The translations under genes and the position numbers were made by a program. DNA of 49,672 nucleotides from Parcubacteria group bacterium Gr01-1014_33. GTDB taxonomy: Bacteria; Patescibacteriota; Minisyncoccia; Sungbacterales; HO2-52-23. Below are positions 10,672 through 49,672 of the stretch, piece by piece (positions within the stretch are counted from its first letter, which is position 1; every line of letters begins with the position of its first letter). Below the pieces are notes generated by a model. That model had not been told where the DNA came from and searched no databases. It saw only the letters and a list, made by a program, of their open reading frames with translations. The DNA is taken from positions 1 to 49,672 of the forward strand of contig VMFQ01000012.1 in the NCBI GenBank assembly GCA_007376125.1, given 5' to 3'.

Positions 10672-11091
10672 TTATATCACTTTCTCTTCTATTTTCTTAA
10701 TCCTCTTATTATGTTCGAAGAGTGTCCCATCAATCCGTTTATGAGCCATAGTATGAGCCGCATGCTCCTTGAGCAATATGTCAAGTTTTGTAATCACTTT
10801 GTCATTACTCTGAATAACATCCGCGTGCATCAGACGAACATCCTGTATTATATCCTCTCTCTGCTGATTTAAATCCTCTTTGGTAGCGAAATACTTCAGG
10901 TCCTCTTTGGTAGCGAAATACTTCAGGTCCTCTTTGGTAGCGAAATACTTCAGGTCTTCTTTGGTAGCGAAATACTTCAGGTCCTCTTTGGTAGCCATTA
11001 TTTCTTGAATATCCAAAAACTGCTGCTGGGTTATCATCGCCAGCTTATCAAGCGTCATTCTTTGTTTTTTTTCAACCATTTTCCTCTGCAT
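10672..11091 (-). CDS. Small coiled-coil protein with five tandem ATKEDLKYF nonapeptide repeats
   Basis: 139-aa ORF. The repeat is encoded by a near-identical 27-bp tandem array. Confidence 0.6.
   Translation of the reverse strand: MQRKMVEKKQRMTLDKLAMITQQQFLDIQEIMATKEDLKYFATKEDLKYFATKEDLKYFATKEDLKYFATKEDLNQQREDIIQDVRLMHADVIQSNDKVITKLDILLKEHAAHTMAHKRIDGTLFEHNKRIKKIEEKVI
10874..10996. repeat. 27-bp tandem repeat, 4.5 copies, in frame inside the CDS
   Basis: The unit tcctctttggtagcgaaatacttcagg starts at 10874, 10901, 10928 and 10955 (the last with one substitution). A partial copy starts at 10982. Confidence 0.9.
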
Positions 11092-34343: not shown

Positions 34344-35159
34344 TCACCACGCGGTCCACCCTCCATCAACAATAAGATTTGCTCCTGTCATATAGCGGGA
34401 CGCATCAGACAAAAGAAAAAGAATTGCGCCGTTGTAGTCGTCTTTTTCTCCCATACGGCCAAGCATGGTGCGCTCGCTATATTTTTTCACAAAAAGAGGA
34501 TCTTGGGCATTTTCTACTCCGCCAAGAGTCAAGGTGTTCACACGCACGCCAAAGCGCGCAAGATATGAAGCAAGTTCGCGGGTAAAATTGGGAAGGGCGC
34601 CTTTTGTAACCGCGTATGCAATAGATCCGAATCGGCCCACCGGATAAATTTGACTGTCGTGCGCCACCTCGCCATACACCGAGCCGATATTGACGATAAC
34701 ACCCGAACGCTGTTTTTTCATAACACGAATAATTACTTGAGTTACAATAAATGTTCCGGTAAGTCCCGTGTCAACCGCCGCTTTCCAGAGATCCAACGGA
34801 TATTCTTCATACGGACTAAACTGCTCGGCTGATTCTTTTTTGGCGGGCGAATACGTCAATGCGGCATTGTTGACTAACGCATCAATGCGGCCCCATCGTT
34901 TCAGAACCGCCGCAATTACTTTTCGTACGCCTTCTTGATCAGTAATATCCTGCGAATAGACATCAATGTTTTTACGGAGACGCAGAGGAAGCGCATGAAC
35001 TTTCTGTTCGAGCTTCGGCTGCCCCAACGCATCTATGATCGCGACTTTCGCACCGGCTGTGGCAAAAAATTCCACATAGCGCATTCCTAAAAAGCCGGCT
35101 CCACCGGTAATGAGGATTATTTTATTTTTTACCGAAAAAATTTGTTCGGATGTGTTCAC
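34344..35159 (-). CDS. SDR family oxidoreductase
   Basis: The GTG at 35159 gives (M)NTSEQIFSVKNKIILITGGAGFLGMRY, parallel to the paralog 45735-46562. NNAA and YAVTK (YxxxK) are present. Confidence 0.75.
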   Translation of the reverse strand: MNTSEQIFSVKNKIILITGGAGFLGMRYVEFFATAGAKVAIIDALGQPKLEQKVHALPLRLRKNIDVYSQDITDQEGVRKVIAAVLKRWGRIDALVNNAALTYSPAKKESAEQFSPYEEYPLDLWKAAVDTGLTGTFIVTQVIIRVMKKQRSGVIVNIGSVYGEVAHDSQIYPVGRFGSIAYAVTKGALPNFTRELASYLARFGVRVNTLTLGGVENAQDPLFVKKYSERTMLGRMGEKDDYNGAILFLLSDASRYMTGANLIVDGGWTAW

Positions 35160-35281
35160 CCGGTTAGAAATAGGACGCAGACGCAAAAAGCGCCTTGCAT
35201 ACTATGGTATTATTTGGCATTGACTTTTGTATGTATATCATATTTTTCAAGTATGCGTTCGCGATTTCTAACGGGGTTCAT
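35160..35281 (-). repeat. Stop-to-start intercistronic element, copy B (diverged)
   Basis: sORF MNPVRNRERILEKYDIHTKVNAK (35281-35210) starts 6 nt after the aminotransferase TAG, behind AGGAAAG. The 3' TIR ATTTCTAAC (35171-35163) is followed by CGG-GTG (35159). Confidence 0.65.
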
Positions 35282-39697: not shown

Positions 39698-39723
39698 GAA
39701 ATTGCTGCCAAATGTTGCTTCTT

Positions 39724-39792
39724 GTCATTGCGAACAGAGCGAAGCAATCTTATATTCCGAGGCGGAGATTGCCGCGCTACGCTCGCAATGAC
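39724..39792. repeat. GTCATTGCGA ... CTCGCAATGAC palindromic repeat (copy 2)
   Basis: gtcattgcgaacagagcgaagcaatc...gagattgccgcgctacgctcgcaatgac, between convergent genes. Confidence 0.7.
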
Positions 39793-39810
39793 AGAGACTT
39801 CCAGACTTAC

Positions 39811-41193
39811 TTAAGAGTTTCCAATAATTTTCCCAATCGCATTCACTGCTCTTTTGTACGACAAGCCATCGGAAAATGGCGCCCACTCGCTTGCAACACT
39901 TCTTCTCTCTTTGCGGTCCAGCGCGGGATTTTCGAGATATTGATTAACAAGCGTACAAAGTTGTTCCGGTGTATCTGCGAGACGCTCTACGCCTCTTTCA
40001 AGGAGTACTTTATTATTCTCAAGTTCATAAATGCGCCGCGGTATTTCGGGGAATCCCATTCCCACAATCGGTTTATCAAAAAGGGCGGCCTCTACCACTA
40101 TCGTGGAGGCATGGCATACCACCACATCGCAATAAAGAAACGTGGCGGTCATATTCACCATATCATTCTTATCCATTTCCACTTTATATTCCGGAGTTTC
40201 CTCATCCCCTCTAACGACGCGCCCTGATCGTTCAATGTGAAGACCCGGAATATCCATATATTCCCGATACGGTCCTATCACATCTATAGGATGAAGACGC
40301 ACAAAAATATTAGGATCACCCATGAGAAGCTTTTCGCGCTTCAGACGCACAAGCGTGCGAAGAAATTCTCCTCGCATTTTATAGATCCCCGGAGTCGGAG
40401 TAGCCCAAAGAATTGTTTTTTTTGAGGGGTCAAGCCCTTTACTTTCGAGAAACGCATCGCGTGAAGGTATACGATTATATTTTCTATCATTGATATAATG
40501 ATCATACCGAAGACACCCTGTCACTAGTACGCGCTCCTCCGGATAATGCATCACCCGTTCAATCTCTCTCTTCATCACATGATTCCAGGCAAAAATATAA
40601 TCCGGAAGGCGAGTTGTTTTTGATTTGGAGTAGGGAAAATCATGATTAAACTCAACTGCAACTGTGGGGATACCAACATGTTTTGCGAATATTATTACCT
40701 CGGCCTCAAGAGCGCTCGTACCGGTTGCCGCGGTGAGAATGAGGCGCGGCTGGTACTTTTCTACTAATTCACGAAACTCCCGTGAAGGACGCGCGATACA
40801 CTTTTCAATACGAGTATAGCGCCGAACAGTAAGAAGGCGCGCCGGGATAAAACTTCCTATAATCATCAAGATCCGATGCCAGCGATTGGGAATACGACCA
40901 TAATCAAGAATCTGTATTGTGGCGAGACTATCGTGCTCACGAATAAAATAGAGCCGGATGTATCGGCTCACGGTATCCCAAAGCCATGCATAGCGAACGT
41001 GGATCGGCTGATAGATAGTGTTTTGATTTACATAATACCCCTGCCACTTCGCCTCCTCTTCATCAATCCAGCGCGTAAGAACTACGACGCGGTATTCTTT
41101 TGCCAAGTGCGGAAAAAACTCACTCCGAAGGACATCGGATAAATGACCATACTTCTCAAGCACAAGAAAAACAGTATTGAGAGGTGAGTTCAT
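39811..41193 (-). CDS. Uncharacterised GT-B-like transferase, paralog P4
   Basis: 460 aa, closely similar to P3 along its length (RPSREFRELVEKYQPRLIL versus RPSPEFSALVKNYRPRLML). ILWATPTPG, FVRLHPIDV and LYCDVVVCHASTIVVEAALFDKPIVGMGF are present. Confidence 0.4.
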   Translation of the reverse strand: MNSPLNTVFLVLEKYGHLSDVLRSEFFPHLAKEYRVVVLTRWIDEEEAKWQGYYVNQNTIYQPIHVRYAWLWDTVSRYIRLYFIREHDSLATIQILDYGRIPNRWHRILMIIGSFIPARLLTVRRYTRIEKCIARPSREFRELVEKYQPRLILTAATGTSALEAEVIIFAKHVGIPTVAVEFNHDFPYSKSKTTRLPDYIFAWNHVMKREIERVMHYPEERVLVTGCLRYDHYINDRKYNRIPSRDAFLESKGLDPSKKTILWATPTPGIYKMRGEFLRTLVRLKREKLLMGDPNIFVRLHPIDVIGPYREYMDIPGLHIERSGRVVRGDEETPEYKVEMDKNDMVNMTATFLYCDVVVCHASTIVVEAALFDKPIVGMGFPEIPRRIYELENNKVLLERGVERLADTPEQLCTLVNQYLENPALDRKERRSVASEWAPFSDGLSYKRAVNAIGKIIGNS

Positions 41194-41302
41194 CCTGTTA
41201 GAAGTTCCACCCCCGCCATGCTACGGCGTGGCGAAAACGATTGTTAATTATTTCCGTGCATAGCATAGCATAATCCCCGCGGGAATTTCTAACGGGATTC
41301 AT
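41194..41302 (-). repeat. Stop-to-start intercistronic element, copy D (divergent; the sORF spans the whole element)
   Basis: An ATG at 41302 overlaps the neuB-like TGA (ATGA). The sORF is MNPVRNSRGDYAMLCTEIINNRFRHAVAWRGWNF. Its TAA (41200-41198) lies inside the 3' TIR, 4 nt before the P4 ATG (41193). The TIRs are GTTAGAAATTCC and GGAACTTCTAAC. Confidence 0.65.
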
Positions 41303-42246
41303 TTTCTTCGAAGCTTCTTGAGAATGGGAATCTCGGATTCATACACGCGCTTGATGCCGTCTCCTTTTGCTATTTCAAAATGCCGGATATATTTCACAAG
41401 TTGCGCAAGACCGTGCGGCTCAAGCGAGGCGGCCTGATCCGACCCCCACATCGCCCGATCAAGGGTAATGTGTCGTTCCACCATACAGGCGCCAAGAACC
41501 GCTGCCGCCAAAGAAGAAGAAATTCCCACTTCATGTCCGCTGTATCCAATCGGAATATACGGAAATCTTTTTTGCAGAGTGTGAATAACAGAGAGATTTA
41601 ATTCATGCGCTTCGGAAGGGTATGTGGAGGTACAATGCAGAATTACACAATTTTCCGCTCCTATACCCTCTACCGCATGTTCTATTTGCCCCATGGTACT
41701 CATGCCGGTTGAGAGAATAATCGGCCGTCCTTTTGAACGGATATACCTCAAAAGCCCATCATCAGTCAAACTTGCGGAAGCAACTTTATAGCATGGCGGA
41801 TTAAACTCTTCAAGAAAATCAACGCTTTCCTCGTCCCACGGCGAGGCAAACCACAGTATCTTTTTTTCTTTGCAGTACTCATCAATTGCCTCATACTCTT
41901 TTTTGGTGAGTTCGAGCGCCCATTTCTGATCTTCATTTCTTGTATCAATGAAATTGGATGTTGTCAGACGCGCACGCGCATCTTCCGAAAGAACTCCGCG
42001 CTGAATTGCCGAAACAACGAGATGGGAAGGCACTTCGCGCGGTTTTATGCGTTCTTCTTCGCTATAGACAACCGGAATAGTCCGTTTTTGAAATTTGACG
42101 GCATCCGCTCCCGCGGCAACCGCCACATCAATAAGGCGGCGCGCAGTGTCAATGTCGCCGTTATGATTGATGCCTATCTCTGCTACGACAAAGCATGGCT
42201 TGCCCGGACCTACTTCACGATCCCCGATTTTAATGGTTTGAGACAT
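41299..42246 (-). CDS. neuB: NeuB-family synthase lacking the C-terminal SAF domain
   Basis: The ATG at 42246 gives MSQTIKIGDREVGPGKPCFVVAEIGINHNGD. GADAVKFQKR and IGYSGHEVG...VLGACMVERHIT are present. The protein ends ~25 aa after the TIM barrel (...ESEIPILKKLRRK*). Confidence 0.75.
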   Translation of the reverse strand: MSQTIKIGDREVGPGKPCFVVAEIGINHNGDIDTARRLIDVAVAAGADAVKFQKRTIPVVYSEEERIKPREVPSHLVVSAIQRGVLSEDARARLTTSNFIDTRNEDQKWALELTKKEYEAIDEYCKEKKILWFASPWDEESVDFLEEFNPPCYKVASASLTDDGLLRYIRSKGRPIILSTGMSTMGQIEHAVEGIGAENCVILHCTSTYPSEAHELNLSVIHTLQKRFPYIPIGYSGHEVGISSSLAAAVLGACMVERHITLDRAMWGSDQAASLEPHGLAQLVKYIRHFEIAKGDGIKRVYESEIPILKKLRRK

Positions 42247-42250
42247 GATT

Positions 42251-42463
42251 GAAATTTTCAATTTACAATGAGAGTTACGCGTTTCATTCTTTCTGTCATT
42301 CCCAACTTGATTGGGAATCCAGTCTTTCTTTCATTCTTGATTCCCGCTTTCGCGGGAATGACATCAAACGCGTAAGTCCTAAATTCTTAAAATTACCAAT
42401 TTTCAAATTGAAAATTCAAGAATTGAAAATTTATTGAAAATTGTTTATTGAAAATTGAAAATT
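42251..42463. repeat. Composite palindrome: GAAAATT-word outer arms enclosing a GTCATTCCC...GGGAATGAC element (42295-42362)
   Basis: gaaattttcaatttacaat...(gtcattcccaacttgattgggaatcc...attcccgctttcgcgggaatgac)...ttgaaaattgtttattgaaaattgaaaatt. Confidence 0.65.
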
Positions 42464-45619: not shown

Positions 45620-45710
45620 GTCATTCCCGCCTCCGGTCGTAGCTGAGGGTAAACTCCAGCGGGAATCCAGTATTAAGAAGAACTGGATTCCCAATCGCGT
45701 TGGGAATGAC
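45620..45710. repeat. GTCATTCCCGC ... TTGGGAATGAC palindromic repeat
   Basis: gtcattcccgcctccgg...ccagcgggaatccag...ctggattcccaatcgcgttgggaatgac. Confidence 0.7.
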
Positions 45711-45734
45711 AGAAACAGCGAATCACATAAATAA

Positions 45735-46562
45735 TTACCACGCGGTTTTGCCGCCGTCCATGATAAGATTTGCTCCGGTCATAAACAAAGAGGCATCCGA
45801 ACAAAGAAAAAGCATTGCGCCGTTATATTCCCCCCCTTGCGCCATCCTGCCAAACATGATGAGCGACGAGTAGCGCTTCACAAAATCTTCCGGATGAGTT
45901 GGTGTTTGCATGCCCACTGGACAAAACATATTTACGCGCACACCATGCGGAGCAAGATATTCAGCCCATGCGCGCGTAAGCCCCAGTAATGCGCTTTTTG
46001 TCGCAATATACGCGGCCGATTTGTATTTGCCCGAGCCCTCTCCGTAGACGCGATGATCATATGCGGTTACCGCAAGTTCCGAACCCTGATTGATGATTAC
46101 TCCTCTTTTTTGATTCATCATTATGGGACTTACCGCTTGCGTGCAAATTTCCGCTCCGGTTAAATTTACCTCAACTTCTTTGCGCCACAAGTCTATCGGA
46201 TATTTTTCATAGGGCGCAAAAAGCGCTTCCGCATCTTTGCTTCCTACTGCGGGATTCATTGCCGCATTATTGATAAGTACATCAATTTTGCCAAATTTTT
46301 TCACCACCGCATCTACTGCGGCTTCAACTGCTTCTTTTTGGGTGATATCCACTCTTACCGCCATCGCCTCAACTCCGCTTGCATTTGTAATTTTTTGCAT
46401 GGATTCCTGCATCACCATTTCATCTTTTAGATCAAAAAGAACTACATGTGCTCCGGCCATGCTCAACACATCCGCATACTGCATACCCAAAAACCCCGCG
46501 CCTCCAGTAATAATCACCACGCGATCTTTTAGGGAAAATAGTTGAAAAATATCAGGATTCAT
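45735..46562 (-). CDS. SDR family oxidoreductase (paralog of 34344-35159)
   Basis: The ATG at 46562 gives MNPDIFQLFSLKDRVVIITGGAGFLGMQY. NNAA and YIATK are present, and the shared C-terminus is GANLIMDGGKTAW. Confidence 0.75.
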   Translation of the reverse strand: MNPDIFQLFSLKDRVVIITGGAGFLGMQYADVLSMAGAHVVLFDLKDEMVMQESMQKITNASGVEAMAVRVDITQKEAVEAAVDAVVKKFGKIDVLINNAAMNPAVGSKDAEALFAPYEKYPIDLWRKEVEVNLTGAEICTQAVSPIMMNQKRGVIINQGSELAVTAYDHRVYGEGSGKYKSAAYIATKSALLGLTRAWAEYLAPHGVRVNMFCPVGMQTPTHPEDFVKRYSSLIMFGRMAQGGEYNGAMLFLCSDASLFMTGANLIMDGGKTAW

Positions 46563-47323
46563 GTTTTTTGAGGATTTCGCGCACAAATTCAAGCTGCCTT
46601 TTCGCGTCCCCGAGATAATCGTCGCTTCGCCATGCCTGCAGAATATATGTTCCATTATAACCAATCTCCGAGAGGACTGCAAAGCATTTTTCAAAATCAG
46701 CATCGCCCGTGCCCAGAATCACCGACTGTGTGCTTCCCCCCTTCCGATCTTTTACATGCACTCCAAAGACACGCGTACCAAGCATCTTGAAATCTCTTGG
46801 ACAATCAAATCCATACGAGGTGCAATTGCCAATATCATAATACACGCCGACGCGAGGACTTTTGAAGCGATCCACGAAATCAATGAGCTCGTTTACGGGA
46901 AGTTCGGTTTCAAACGCAATCCGCAACGTGTTATCCCTCATCCCGTTGAGCGCTTGGGTGATAACGGAAATAATTTTCTGTTTCTCTCCTTCGCTTTTAA
47001 CCGCGTGATCCTCAAGAAGCGGAATAAGAATAAGGTTTTGGCCAATCTTGGCCGCATATTGCATCTGGGGAATAAGTTCGCGATTCACCACCTGAACCGG
47101 GTCTCTTCCCACCAACGGATACTTCATGAAATAGTCCGAGCACATTGAGAGAGTTTCTATTCCGCTTAAACTCTTCCCAATCCAAAAGCCACTCAATGCA
47201 ATCAAATCCCATCTCGCGCGCCACCTTAAACTCTTTCTGCCAATCCGGCGGAAAAAATTGCAACCGTTTTTCATTTTCCGGGCGCAGGGTAAGCCGCCCC
47301 TGCATAATTCCAATTTTGTTCAT
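46552..47323 (-). pseudogene. UlaE/SgbU-like sugar-phosphate 3-epimerase/isomerase (xylose-isomerase-like TIM barrel) with a frameshift
   Basis: The N-terminus MNKIGIMQGRLTL...GFDCIEW is in the frame of ORF 47012..47350. The rest (SGIETLSMCSDYF...VGVYYDIGN...HVKD...GYNGTYILQAW) is in the frame of ORF 46552..47313. The switch lies within 47167-47188. Confidence 0.6.
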
Positions 47324-47442
47324 CCCGTGAGAAATAGGACGCAGACGCAAAGGGCATCTTGCGTACTATGTTATTGCTAATAATTTTTTTCTATGTATGT
47401 TATATTTTCGGGTATGCGGCCGCGATTTCTAACGAGGTTCAT
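47324..47442 (-). repeat. Stop-to-start intercistronic element, copy C (near-identical to copy A)
   Basis: About 105 nt are identical to 28313-28420 except for one T-run indel and a few end bases. The sORF is MNLVRNRGRIPENITYIEKNY (47442-47377). The 3' arm ATTTCTCAC is followed by GGG-ATG (47323). No upstream gene abuts this copy. Confidence 0.7.
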
Positions 47443-48949: not shown

Positions 48950-49672
48950 CTATTCTACATCGGCAAACGTGACATTTTCGTCAAAAAGGATGTCTCGCTT
49001 TGCTTTCTTTCCGATGATACGCGCCAAATTGCCATCCATTGCATAGACGCCATTACCAGGCCTTTTGGCACCAAGGTGAGATGCGGTGATGATCTCCCCT
49101 TTTTTGATATCAACAACTGCACAGATGCTCTTTCGCATACCGATGATGTTTTCAAGCTCTCCGCCACGGGGACGGATTTCGGGTGTTCCCAATGCCTTCT
49201 CCACGACCCGAATCGCATCTACAAATTCCTTAAACTCTTGGGGCTCCATGGATGCTTTGTGATCCGGACCGCTTCGCGCTTTGTCGTCAGTAAAATGGCG
49301 TTCATATACTTTTGCGCCAAGAGCCGCCGCCGCAATGCTTGAAACCGGCCCTTCGGTGTGATCCGAAAATCCAACCACATCAACAAATCTTTTCAGAGAT
49401 TGCATCGCGAGTAAATTTTGATCTTCCGGATTTGCGGGGTAGTTGGTATTGCATTGGAGAAGAATCAAATTATCCGGATTTGTTTTATTTTTTTCCGCCT
49501 CATCGCGAAATGCAGACACAGCCGCCATCACCTCGGTTTCGTTTGCAAGACCCACTGAAAGAATTACCGGTTTCCCGGTTTGCGCAGTTCTTCGAATAAG
49601 CGGATGATTTACGGTTTCAATCGAGGCGAGCTTATACGCCATAACTACTAACTTTTCCAATTCGTCCACAGC
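48950..49672 (-). CDS. neuB: NeuB-family nonulosonic acid synthase with SAF domain; N-terminus outside the window
   Basis: VGFSDHTEGPVSSIAAAALGAKVYERHFT...GPDHKASMEP, with SAF tail VVDIKKGEIITASHLGAKRPGNG. The ORF is open to the window edge. Confidence 0.8.
   Translation of the reverse strand, partial: AVDELEKLVVMAYKLASIETVNHPLIRRTAQTGKPVILSVGLANETEVMAAVSAFRDEAEKNKTNPDNLILLQCNTNYPANPEDQNLLAMQSLKRFVDVVGFSDHTEGPVSSIAAAALGAKVYERHFTDDKARSGPDHKASMEPQEFKEFVDAIRVVEKALGTPEIRPRGGELENIIGMRKSICAVVDIKKGEIITASHLGAKRPGNGVYAMDGNLARIIGKKAKRDILFDENVTFADVE

What the first reader, a model, noticed from the sequence alone, without database searches (positions are those of the whole stretch)
41194..41302. Divergent copy D: small ORF spans the entire spacer from the NeuB stop to the P4 start
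In this copy the sORF is 34 aa (MNPVRNSRGDYAMLCTEIINNRFRHAVAWRGWNF). It starts by ATGA overlap with the NeuB-like stop. It ends at a TAA inside the 3' arm, only 4 nt before the ATG of the GT-B-like gene P4. This forms a continuous stop/start relay: gene, sORF, gene. The interior differs completely from copies A-C while the two arms and the MNPVRN start are kept. That argues for selection on the ends.
Basis: seen in the sequence. Interest (0 to 1): 0.6.

Follow-up and report, generated by a model that had tools for sequence, protein, structure and literature searches.

The report
Mobile repeat parked on start codon
The 34-codon "small gene" is a side effect of a 105-bp mobile inverted-repeat element that landed on the stop/start junction between two sugar-pathway genes and copied four bases, so both genes kept their stop and start codons; the element family occurs in many bacterial phyla, and this scan had already flagged a sister copy.

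Summary
The sORF is 41302..41198. Its ATG overlaps the NeuB-like stop (ATGA), and its TAA lies 4 nt before the ATG of P4 (39811..41193).

What it is: copy D (41193-41297, 105 nt) is a non-coding member of an inverted-repeat element family with arms YCCCGTTAGA...TCTAACGGGR. It is flanked by a 4-bp direct repeat, TGAA. The left TGAA keeps the NeuB stop and P4's original ATG, which now opens the sORF. "PVRN" is the translated arm. The element's last base (A) plus the right TGAA rebuilds ATG-AA for P4. The TAA is built into the right arm.

The family is genome-wide, order-wide and cross-phylum. Longer copies with the same ends carry an ~85-aa GIY-YIG nuclease gene. An empty versus filled site was seen at rpsB.

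D's open frame alone is not significant (25% of shuffles). Across 73 start-codon insertions, however, this frame is open in 41%, against 11-15% for the other two frames of the same strand. Translation through the element (a relay) therefore seems to be favoured, while the peptide itself is not conserved.

The scan had already reported this element at copy A (e1-3356485). I confirmed its claims independently and added to them.

The parts
41299..42261 (-). NeuB-family synthase gene without a SAF domain. Its stop TGA is at 41301-41299 and lies inside the left copy of the duplicated TGAA.
   Evidence: Pfam NeuB E=1e-76. The C-terminus ...ILKKLRRK* matches the closest homologue in G048 (65% identity...VLKKLRRVGAK*), so the gene is not truncated by the insertion.
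41298..41301 (-). Left copy of the 4-bp target-site duplication TGAA. With the A at 41302 it forms ATGA, which holds both the NeuB stop and P4's original start codon.
   Evidence: The flanking 4-mers covary across the family.
41193..41297 (-). Copy D of the inverted-repeat element, 105 nt, with T...A ends. Left arm 41297-41282 is TCCCGTTAGAAATTCC. Right arm 41208-41193 is GGAACTTCTAACAGGA. 14 of 16 positions are complementary.
   Evidence: The arms pair in the RNA minimum-free-energy fold, -36.3 kcal/mol, z=-1.95.
41198..41302 (-). 34-codon sORF plus its TAA stop. It starts at P4's pre-insertion ATG, reads through the whole element and stops at the TAA built into the right arm.
   Evidence: No Pfam family. 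The same architecture occurs in 21 of 73 start-codon insertions elsewhere.
41189..41192 (-). Right copy of the duplication TGAA. With the element's last base A (41193) it rebuilds ATG-AA, the start of P4.
   Evidence: Homologues of P4 start 3-6 residues before the conserved (I/V)F(L/F/I)VL strand, as P4 does from this ATG.
39811..41193 (-). P4, a 460-aa glycosyl/glycerophosphotransferase-like protein and the downstream host gene.
   Evidence: Pfam Glyphos_transf E=1e-8. Homologues at 41-47% identity occur in another family of the same order.
28306..28421 (-). Sister copy A. TSD is TGAA, the rebuilt start is GTG (epimerase gene), and the sORF is 25 aa with an internal stop.
35159..35276 (-). 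Sister copy B. TSD is TGAA and the rebuilt start is GTG (SDR gene).
47323..47437 (-). Sister copy C. TSD is TGAA and the rebuilt start is ATG (TIM-barrel gene, frameshifted).

Best explanation
Copy D is a 105-bp non-autonomous (MITE-like) member of a mobile inverted-repeat element family whose longer members carry a small GIY-YIG nuclease gene. It inserted into the ATGA stop/start overlap that originally coupled the NeuB-like gene to P4, and it duplicated TGAA.

Consequences that the sequence shows directly:
- The left TGAA keeps the NeuB stop and P4's old ATG, which now reads into the element.
- MN comes from the flank and duplication, and PVRN from the arm.
- The element's terminal A plus the right TGAA recreate P4's ATG-AAC.
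- Because the element length is a multiple of 3, the old ATG's frame meets the TAA inside the right arm, 4 nt before the new ATG.

Inferred: ribosomes that finish NeuB, or start at the old ATG, translate the sORF. This melts the arm-arm hairpin. They terminate next to the rebuilt ATG and re-initiate there, so P4 stays translationally coupled. The peptide itself has no function.

I give about 0.85 to the insertion origin and about 0.45 to the relay being functionally important.
For: Family and arms:
- There are 4 copies in the window between unrelated gene pairs and about 30 paired copies in the 1.05-Mb genome.
- 24 of 31 related genomes have matches, with 0 hits for the reversed control pattern.
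- A capped scan returned 120 or more loci in named MAGs of many Patescibacteria lineages, and also Omnitrophota, Planctomycetota, Thermodesulfobacteriota, Gammaproteobacteria and Spirochaetia.

Target-site duplication:
- In 134 distinct elements, 73 have identical 4-nt flanks, and the flanks covary: TGAA/TGAA 47, TGGA/TGGA 12, TGAG/TGAG 10.
- In an unconditioned sample, 40 of 74 have identical flanks of many kinds.

Empty versus filled site:
- G000 rpsB reads ATGAA|104-nt element|TGAACGAATCA.
- Relatives read ATGAACGAAGTG or ATGAATGAAG with no arms.

Start-codon configuration:
- All 73 TSD-bearing elements have ATG or GTG at the left, and 63 have a long ORF from the right RTG.
- 129 of 244 T...A-ended elements in 62 genomes are in the TGNN|element|TG configuration.

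Nuclease-bearing partners:
- The 10 closest GIY-YIG genes (62-100% identity) are all flanked by the same arms, and 8 of them sit on a host start codon with TSD TGAA/TGAG/TGAT (L249, L021 and L252 show no clear duplication); their stop TGA lies in the duplication and overlaps the rebuilt ATG.

Relay:
- The sORF frame is open in 30 of 73, against 11 and 8 for the other forward frames, 16/11/10 for the reverse-complement frames, and 14% for shuffles. Weighted over 65 clusters it is 26.5 against 15.
- 21 of the 73 end at TAA-4nt-RTG like D.
- The upstream gene's stop overlaps the left ATG in 11 of 68.
Against: - No orthologous NeuB-P4 junction exists in the 62 genomes of the order, and a metagenome scan for P4's N-terminus found nothing. 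The empty site of D itself was therefore not seen.
- D's open frame alone is expected in 25% of shuffles.
- Copies A-C have internal stops and apparently still serve their genes.
- G000 has no GIY-YIG gene flanked by these arms, so D may be immobile now. Its right arm has two departures from the consensus.
- That the GIY-YIG protein moves the elements is inferred from association only. About 46% of elements lack identical flanks.
- The same arms also enclose tRNA genes and tiny hairpins, which a simple transposon model does not explain.
Confidence: 0.8

Rival explanations
1. Same insertion origin, but the sORF is irrelevant. It is open by chance, and P4 is translated by independent initiation at the rebuilt ATG, or after the hairpin brings the upstream region close to it.
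For: 25% of shuffles of D's interior stay open. Copies A-C and 43 of 73 start-codon insertions have internal stops yet precede intact long ORFs. D's relative C15:4136-4233 has no sORF.
Against: Across the family, the frame set by the old ATG is open about three times more often than the other two frames of the same strand, and more often than the reverse-complement frames. No SD-like 4-mer lies 4-16 nt before the rebuilt start in 62 of 68 elements, so independent initiation has no obvious support.
Confidence: 0.3
2. The arms are primarily an RNA-level (or single-strand DNA) structural signal kept by the host, for example a processing or stability stem. The sORF and the direct repeats are secondary.
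For: The arms pair in predicted folds, with z=-1.95 for D and z=-3.3 for A. The same arms enclose whole tRNA genes (G000 C38 tRNA-Ala, and several relatives) and 62-70-nt two-hairpin modules that differ in sequence but keep their pairing. The terminal pair covaries: T..A 54, C..G 12, mixed 2.
Against: Covarying 4-nt direct repeats that are not complementary to each other (TGAA/TGAA, TTTA/TTTA, TCCA/TCCA) are what a staggered-cut insertion leaves. A stem does not need them. Presence or absence at rpsB among genera. No Rfam family, even at E<=1. No terminator-like tail.
Confidence: 0.15
3. The sORF encodes a functional micropeptide (MNPVRN...) that is under selection as a protein.
For: The MNPVR start recurs in dozens of loci. 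One subfamily shows recurring ...NRGR...IGFGR...ASYF peptides.
Against: The shared residues are the translated arm and duplication. Interiors are unrelated between subfamilies, and lengths and stops vary. No Pfam match. D's closest relative lacks a start codon.
Confidence: 0.03

Closest known systems
Ssn nucleases and their SRM/NTS hairpin repeats (Chenal et al., Nat Commun 2025, PMC11893778)
   Same: A small single-domain GIY-YIG nuclease gene is flanked on both sides by its own short hairpin-forming repeat. Many gene-less copies of the repeat are spread around genes. That paper itself notes the IS-like repeat-gene-repeat layout.
   Different: The arm sequence (YCCCGTTAGA) is unrelated to the NTS consensus CGTCATTCCCGCGMAVGCGGGAATCYRG. 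Here the two arms are far apart and enclose 5-300 nt of cargo. There are 4-bp target duplications, start-codon placement and a fixed orientation, none of which I found in the sections of that paper that I read or word-searched. The best solved-structure hit of the nuclease is UPF0213 (1zg2, E=1e-8). Membership of the Ssn clade (cd10448) could not be tested.
Bacterial MITEs and mosaic repeats (Correia elements and NIMEs of Neisseria, from own knowledge; review PMC3184786 appeared in search but was not read)
   Same: Short non-coding elements with terminal inverted repeats, a small target-site duplication, many copies, variable interiors between conserved ends, and placement at gene borders.
   Different: The partner that shares the ends encodes an ~85-aa GIY-YIG nuclease, not a DDE or tyrosine transposase. 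More than half of the T..A-ended copies sit exactly on a start codon and rebuild it. The family spans several phyla.
Rickettsia palindromic elements (RPE; own knowledge)
   Same: Palindromic mobile repeats that can be tolerated inside reading frames. The G000 rpsB copy adds 108 nt in frame.
   Different: RPEs insert within coding regions and are translated as part of the host protein. D lies between two genes and is read as a separate sORF.
REP/BIME with RAYT, and IS200/IS605-derived palindrome elements (own knowledge; discussed in PMC11893778)
   Same: Hairpin repeats multiplied by a small nuclease or transposase gene that is flanked by the same repeats, with strand- or orientation-specific behaviour.
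   Different: Those systems leave no target duplication and use HUH tyrosine enzymes.
Translational coupling by overlapping or adjacent stop/start codons (ATGA; termination-reinitiation; established knowledge)
   Same: NeuB-TGA overlaps the sORF ATG, and the sORF TAA lies 4 nt before P4's ATG. This is the geometry that allows re-initiation.
   Different: Here the intermediate cistron was created by a mobile element, and its sequence is arbitrary.

Membership tests
MITE-like non-autonomous element | Terminal inverted repeats | tested here: met
   In D, 14 of 16 positions are complementary (TCCCGTTAGAAATTCC / GGAACTTCTAACAGGA). The same arms occur in all copies.
MITE-like non-autonomous element | Target-site duplication flanking the element | tested here: met
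   TGAA lies on both sides of D. The flanks covary in 73 of 134 and 40 of 74 elements. The empty rpsB site carries a single TGAA.
MITE-like non-autonomous element | Multiple dispersed copies, small size, no coding capacity of its own | tested here: met
   About 30 paired copies of 27-266 nt in G000. The sORF peptides are not conserved and have no Pfam hit.
MITE-like non-autonomous element | A longer partner with the same ends that encodes the mobility enzyme | tested here: inconclusive
   276-286-nt copies with the same arms carry a GIY-YIG ORF; 8 of the 10 closest also show the same TSD on a host start codon. Whether this protein moves the element was not tested. None with these arms was found in G000.
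Ssn / SRM system | Nuclease belongs to the Ssn clade (CDD cd10448) | not testable with these tools
   Pfam GIY-YIG E=2e-18. No NCBIfam family for the query nuclease; two sister copies gave only sub-threshold hits. Best PDB hit is UPF0213 BH0048, 1zg2. No CDD library is on hand.
Ssn / SRM system | Repeat matches the SRM/NTS consensus hairpin | tested here: not met
   The arms YCCCGTTAGA...TCTAACGGGR do not resemble CGTCATTCCCGCGMAVGCGGGAATCYRG. True NTS-like hairpins exist elsewhere in the window (42275-42330 and 45675-45730).
Ssn / SRM system | Nuclease gene flanked on both sides by its cognate repeat | tested here: met
   13 of 30 homologues, and all 10 with at least 62% identity, have both arms.
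Ssn / SRM system | Site-specific cleavage of single-stranded DNA near the hairpin | not testable with these tools
   This is biochemistry only.
Functional small protein gene | Peptide sequence conserved among copies beyond what the DNA repeat imposes | tested here: not met
   Only the M(N/D/S)PVR start and the arm-encoded last residues (e.g. F/L, or LTG) are shared, and both are encoded by the arms.
Known structured RNA family (Rfam) | Match to a curated covariance model | tested here: not met
   No match at gathering threshold in the window, and none at E<=1 in 41100-41400.

The most novel reading that the evidence does not exclude
The elements are a previously undescribed class of DNA transposon driven by a stand-alone ~85-aa GIY-YIG nuclease. 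This class inserts in one orientation exactly at start codons, rebuilds the codon from its own last base plus a 4-bp duplication, and overlaps its nuclease stop codon with the rebuilt start. It leaves gene-less derivatives, such as copy D, whose read-through sORFs are kept open to relay translation to the host gene. It is spread across Patescibacteria and several other phyla.
Probability: 0.35. Interest if true: 0.8.

Novelty: new variant of a known kind. Interest (0 to 1): 0.55.

Why it matters
For this locus, the sORF should not be annotated as a gene, and P4's start at 41193 is a rebuilt codon.

More broadly, the family shows how a mobile element can sit on a start codon in very compact genomes without killing the gene. 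It restores the stop and start codons by duplication, and it probably passes ribosomes on through a throw-away reading frame.

If the GIY-YIG protein is the mobility enzyme, this would be a new and very small transposition system with a defined target geometry. It would also be another nuclease/hairpin pair of the kind that made the Ssn family useful as a tool.

There is a practical side too. Gene callers will mis-start or split genes at these sites in thousands of candidate-phyla genomes.

Tried and rejected
- Orthologous NeuB-P4 junction. The best P4 homologues (41-47% identity) and the best NeuB homologue (65%) have other neighbours, so there is no empty site for D.
- Metagenome scan with a degenerate pattern for P4's N-terminus: 0 hits.
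- Integron attC reading, rejected. The core-like motifs are in the wrong order: GTTAGAA...TTCTAAC here, where attC has RYYYAAC...GTTRRRY (own knowledge of attC; sequence).
- DNA-uptake-sequence reading, rejected. There are only about 90 arm-like 9-mers per Mb, and most are in inverted pairs.
- Search for a classical transposase between arms 400-4000 nt apart in G000: nothing convincing.
- The six small GIY-YIG genes of G000 are not flanked by these arms. Their flanking sequences show different repeats (e.g. C66, C22, C77).
- Rfam, Pfam on the sORF peptides and the promoter/terminator scan: nothing above chance.
- Literature searches for the arm sequence, and for GIY-YIG with MITE or start codon: nothing relevant.
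- Two genome-search runs failed on gap size.

Full report
**1. Observation**

The feature lies on the minus strand.
- The NeuB-family ORF 41299..42261 (Pfam NeuB, E=1e-76) ends with a TGA at 41301-41299.
- The A at 41302 together with that TG forms an ATG, so the arrangement is ATGA.
- From this ATG a 34-codon frame runs to a TAA at 41200-41198. It translates to MNPVRNSRGDYAMLCTEIINNRFRHAVAWRGWNF.
- Four bases later (CAGG) the ATG at 41193 opens the 460-aa ORF 39811..41193 (Glyphos_transf-like).
- Homologues of this protein start 3-6 residues before the same conserved N-terminal strand, so 41193 is the true start.

The 18-mer ATGAAYCCCGTTAGAAAT occurs four times in the window, against 0.12 expected. 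The four copies are A 28306-28421, B 35159-35276, C 47323-47437 and D 41193-41297. They align only at their ends, and D's interior is unrelated to A-C. The gene pairs around the four copies are all different:
- A: an unknown gene and an epimerase
- B: a DegT aminotransferase and an SDR
- C: an unidentified upstream region and a TIM-barrel gene
- D: NeuB and the transferase P4

These are therefore independent placements, not a duplicated gene module.

**2. Anatomy of the ends**

Each copy has inverted arms, YCCCGTTAGAnnT ... AnnTCTAACGGGR. Outside the arms lies the same 4-mer in direct orientation. On the minus strand this 4-mer is TGAA in all four window copies.

In D:
- The left TGAA (41301-41298), with the A before it, holds both the NeuB stop and an ATG.
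- The right TGAA (41192-41189), with the last base of the element (A, 41193), gives ATG-AA for P4.
- Removing the 105 nt and one TGAA leaves ...AAAATGAACTCACC.... That is an ordinary ATGA stop/start overlap between NeuB and P4.

In A and B the element ends in G, so the rebuilt start is GTG. In C and D it ends in A, so the rebuilt start is ATG.

"MNPVRN" is therefore the old start codon, then the duplicated bases plus the first base of the arm, then the arm read as protein. The TAA is the TCTAAC of the other arm. The right arm fixes the outcome for any frame that stays open through the interior:
- Length that is a multiple of 3 gives TAA, 4 nt, RTG (this is D).
- Length mod 3 = 1 gives a TGA that overlaps the RTG.
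- Length mod 3 = 2 gives an in-frame fusion.

**3. The family**

- In the window's own genome (1.05 Mb, 86 contigs, 46% GC) there are about 30 paired copies of 27-266 nt. Their interiors are diverse: AT-rich sequence, two-hairpin modules of 62-68 nt, a tRNA-Ala gene (C38), and tiny hairpins.
- D's closest relative is C15:4136-4233. It shares TCCCGTTAGAAATTCCCGCGGGG and the ...TTCTAACAGGA end, but it has TTTA flanks and no start codon. D's interior also contains a half-copy of another hairpin repeat of this genome, AACAATCGTTTTCGCC.
- The exact arm pair occurs in 24 of 31 related genomes, with no hit for the reversed control pattern.
The named hosts include many Patescibacteria lineages (Paceibacterota, Saccharibacteria, Kaiserbacteria, Nomurabacteria and others). 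They also include Omnitrophota, Planctomycetota, Thermodesulfobacteriota, Gammaproteobacteria and Spirochaetia.
- I could not name the window's own organism with the tools at hand. Earlier notes of this scan call it Patescibacteria.

**4. Insertion and duplication are real**

- In 134 distinct elements (which required RTG at one end), 73 have identical 4-mers on both sides, and the two sides covary: TGAA/TGAA 47, TGGA/TGGA 12, TGAG/TGAG 10, TGCA 2, TGCG 1.
- In an unconditioned sample of 74 exact-arm elements from 12 genomes, 40 have identical flanks of many kinds. These include TAAA, TTGA, TGAA and their complements, plus CAAG, CAGG and TGGA.
- These repeats are not complementary to each other. 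A stem would not require them, whereas a staggered-cut insertion would leave them.
- A direct empty/filled comparison exists for a sister copy. G000 rpsB reads ggaggtATGAA|CCCCGTTAGA...(104 nt)...TCTAACGGGG|TGAACGAATCA. rpsB of other genera of the family starts ATGAACGAAGTG or ATGAATGAAG. 27 of the 29 relatives examined have no arm within 230 nt upstream of the aligned start.
- In G000 that insertion adds 108 nt in frame, so uS2 may carry a 36-residue extension.

**5. Start codons**

- All 73 elements with identical flanks in the conditioned sample have ATG (65) or GTG (8) at the left, and 63 have an ORF of at least 60 codons from the right RTG.
- Without conditioning, 16 of 74 C..G-ended elements abut a start codon.
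- For the T..A-ended variant to which D belongs, 129 of 244 elements in 62 genomes are in the configuration TGNN|element|TG. About 0.4% would be expected for two independent TG dinucleotides.
- The two terminal bases covary: T..A 54, C..G 12, mixed 2.
- The upstream gene's stop overlaps the left ATG, as in D, in 11 of 68.
- I cannot tell whether this placement reflects target choice or survival of harmless insertions in very compact genomes. The other common flanks (TAAA, TTGA) contain stop codons, and a few elements sit on gene ends, which fits the survival explanation.

**6. Nuclease-bearing copies**

I tested this.
- Elements of 276-286 nt with the same arms encode an ~85-aa GIY-YIG protein. 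Support: Pfam E=2e-18 and a best solved-structure hit to UPF0213 BH0048, 1zg2, E=1e-8.
- Homologues occur in 47 of 62 genomes of the order, with up to 14 per genome.
- The ten closest (62-100% identity) all have both arms. Eight have T..A ends, and eight sit on a host start codon with TSD TGAA/TGAG/TGAT. Example: L250, ATGAG|TCCCGTTAGAG...ATG...TCTCTAACGGGA|TGAGtgag. L249, L021 and L252 show no clear duplication.
- The nuclease ORF reads through the right arm (...FLSLTG). It stops at the TGA of the duplication, and that TGA overlaps the rebuilt ATG.
- More distant GIY-YIG clades have other cognate arms, and several also sit on start codons with an ATG or TATG duplication.
- G000 itself has six small GIY-YIG genes, but none is flanked by the CCCGTTAGA arms. 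D has no visible autonomous partner in this assembly (96.7% complete).

**7. Polarity**

- The arms are symmetric for 13 nt and then differ.
- A signature derived from the nuclease 3' end is TTCCTnTCTCTAACGGGA, which reads as AGG 3 nt beyond the arm on the reverse complement. It is found at the gene-proximal (right) end in 28 of 73 start-codon elements and at the left end in 1 of 73.
- In one search the relatives of A-C that I inspected by eye face the host gene the same way.
- The gene-less elements therefore look like internally deleted nuclease elements that are placed, or retained, in one orientation. D belongs to a subfamily with symmetric 16-nt arms and lacks this signature.

**8. Is the sORF meaningful?**

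- For D alone the open frame is unremarkable: 25% of interior shuffles stay open.
- Across the 73 start-codon elements, the frame set by the old ATG is open through the interior in 30. The other two forward frames are open in 11 and 8, the three reverse-complement frames in 16, 11 and 10, and shuffled interiors in 14%.
- The elements fall into 65 clusters by shared 8-mers. Weighted by cluster, the figures are 26.5 against 15.
- Of the 30 open frames, 21 end at TAA-4nt-RTG exactly as in D and 9 run to the element's end. By the stop positions, 8 of those 9 end at a TGA overlapping the RTG, and 2 elements in the listing are in-frame fusions; these sub-counts do not sum cleanly.
- The peptides share only the arm-encoded residues. 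The exception is one DNA subfamily, the relatives of A-C, with ...NRGR..IGFGR..ASYF.
- An SD-like 4-mer lies 4-16 nt before the rebuilt start in only 6 of 68.
- In predicted folds the arms pair, which places both start codons at the base of the stem.
- My reading is that translation through the element is favoured because it opens the stem and delivers ribosomes to the rebuilt start (termination-reinitiation). What is translated does not matter. This step is inferred, not shown.

**9. What remains unexplained**

- The same arms enclose functional-looking tRNA genes and 27-40-nt hairpins.
- About 46% of elements lack identical flanks.
- The nuclease-bearing copies in G036 and G019 sit at a homologous site with no clear duplication.
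- A role of the arms as an RNA or single-strand DNA signal is therefore not excluded.

**10. Comparison and novelty**

- The nearest described system is Ssn with its SRM/NTS hairpin repeats (PMC11893778). It shares the repeat-nuclease-repeat layout and the many orphan repeats.
- The repeat sequence here is different. Clade membership of the nuclease could not be tested. Target duplications, start-codon placement and polarity were not found in the sections of that paper that I read or word-searched.
- Full-text searches for the arm sequence, and for GIY-YIG with MITE or start codon, gave nothing relevant.
- The scan had already reported the element at copy A. My analysis agrees with that report. 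It adds the covarying duplications, the rpsB empty site, the 53% start-codon share of T..A-ended copies, the polarity, and the frame-openness test that bears directly on this finding.

**Verdict**

The sORF is a by-product of a mobile element, not a gene. The stop/start relay it forms is a recurrent, and probably useful, consequence of the element's design.

Noticed in passing
window 42275-42330 and 45675-45730: Hairpins CTGTCATTCCCAACTTGATTGGGAATCCAG and its complement closely match the flanks of the published NTS/SRM consensus (GTCATTCCC...GGGAATCYRG) of the Ssn nuclease system. They bracket a 3.3-kb segment of the gene cluster (I4; consensus).
   Followed up: partly
window 39723-39793: Another hairpin repeat (TGTCATTGCGAAC...GCTCGCAATGACA) lies directly after the stop of P4. 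The same GTCATTGCGAG motif flanks a small GIY-YIG gene on contig C22 of this genome.
   Followed up: partly
window 46552-47323 (minus strand): The gene after copy C (xylose-isomerase-like TIM barrel) is split between two frames. MNKIGIMQGRLT... runs for 103 codons, and the rest of the domain continues in another frame. This is either a frameshift or an assembly error.
   Followed up: partly
G000 contig C41:4986-5089 (same genome, outside the window): A 104-nt copy of the element sits on the rpsB start codon with TSD TGAA. The 108 added bases are in frame, so ribosomal protein uS2 may carry a 36-residue N-terminal extension. Relatives lack the insertion.
   Followed up: yes
G000 contigs C38:2894-2999, C75:19202-19274, C58:4032-4102, and several relatives: Whole tRNA genes are enclosed by the same or slightly varied arms. 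Many other tRNAs of this genome are flanked by other long inverted repeats, for example CACCCTCCCATCT.../...AGATGGGAGGG around tRNA-Arg.
   Followed up: partly
L028 (G042:C7) 1501-1814: A GIY-YIG-bearing element is itself interrupted by a nested copy of a gene-less element inside the nuclease ORF.
   Followed up: no
L017 (G036:C1) 1501-1776 and L021 (G019:C1) 988-1263: Nuclease-bearing copies are 94% identical at the protein level and sit at a homologous site in genomes of two different families of the order. This suggests recent transfer or strong conservation.
   Followed up: no
window 10874-11008: A 27-nt unit (TCCTCTTTGGTAGCGAAATACTTCAGG) is repeated about five times in tandem inside the ORF 10672..11091 (D2).
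   Followed up: no
window 41299-42261: This NeuB paralogue lacks the C-terminal SAF domain, which at least the paralogue at 48950-49669 has. Its closest homologue (G048, 65% identity) ends at the same place and likewise appears to lack the domain, so this looks like a natural short subfamily.
   Followed up: partly
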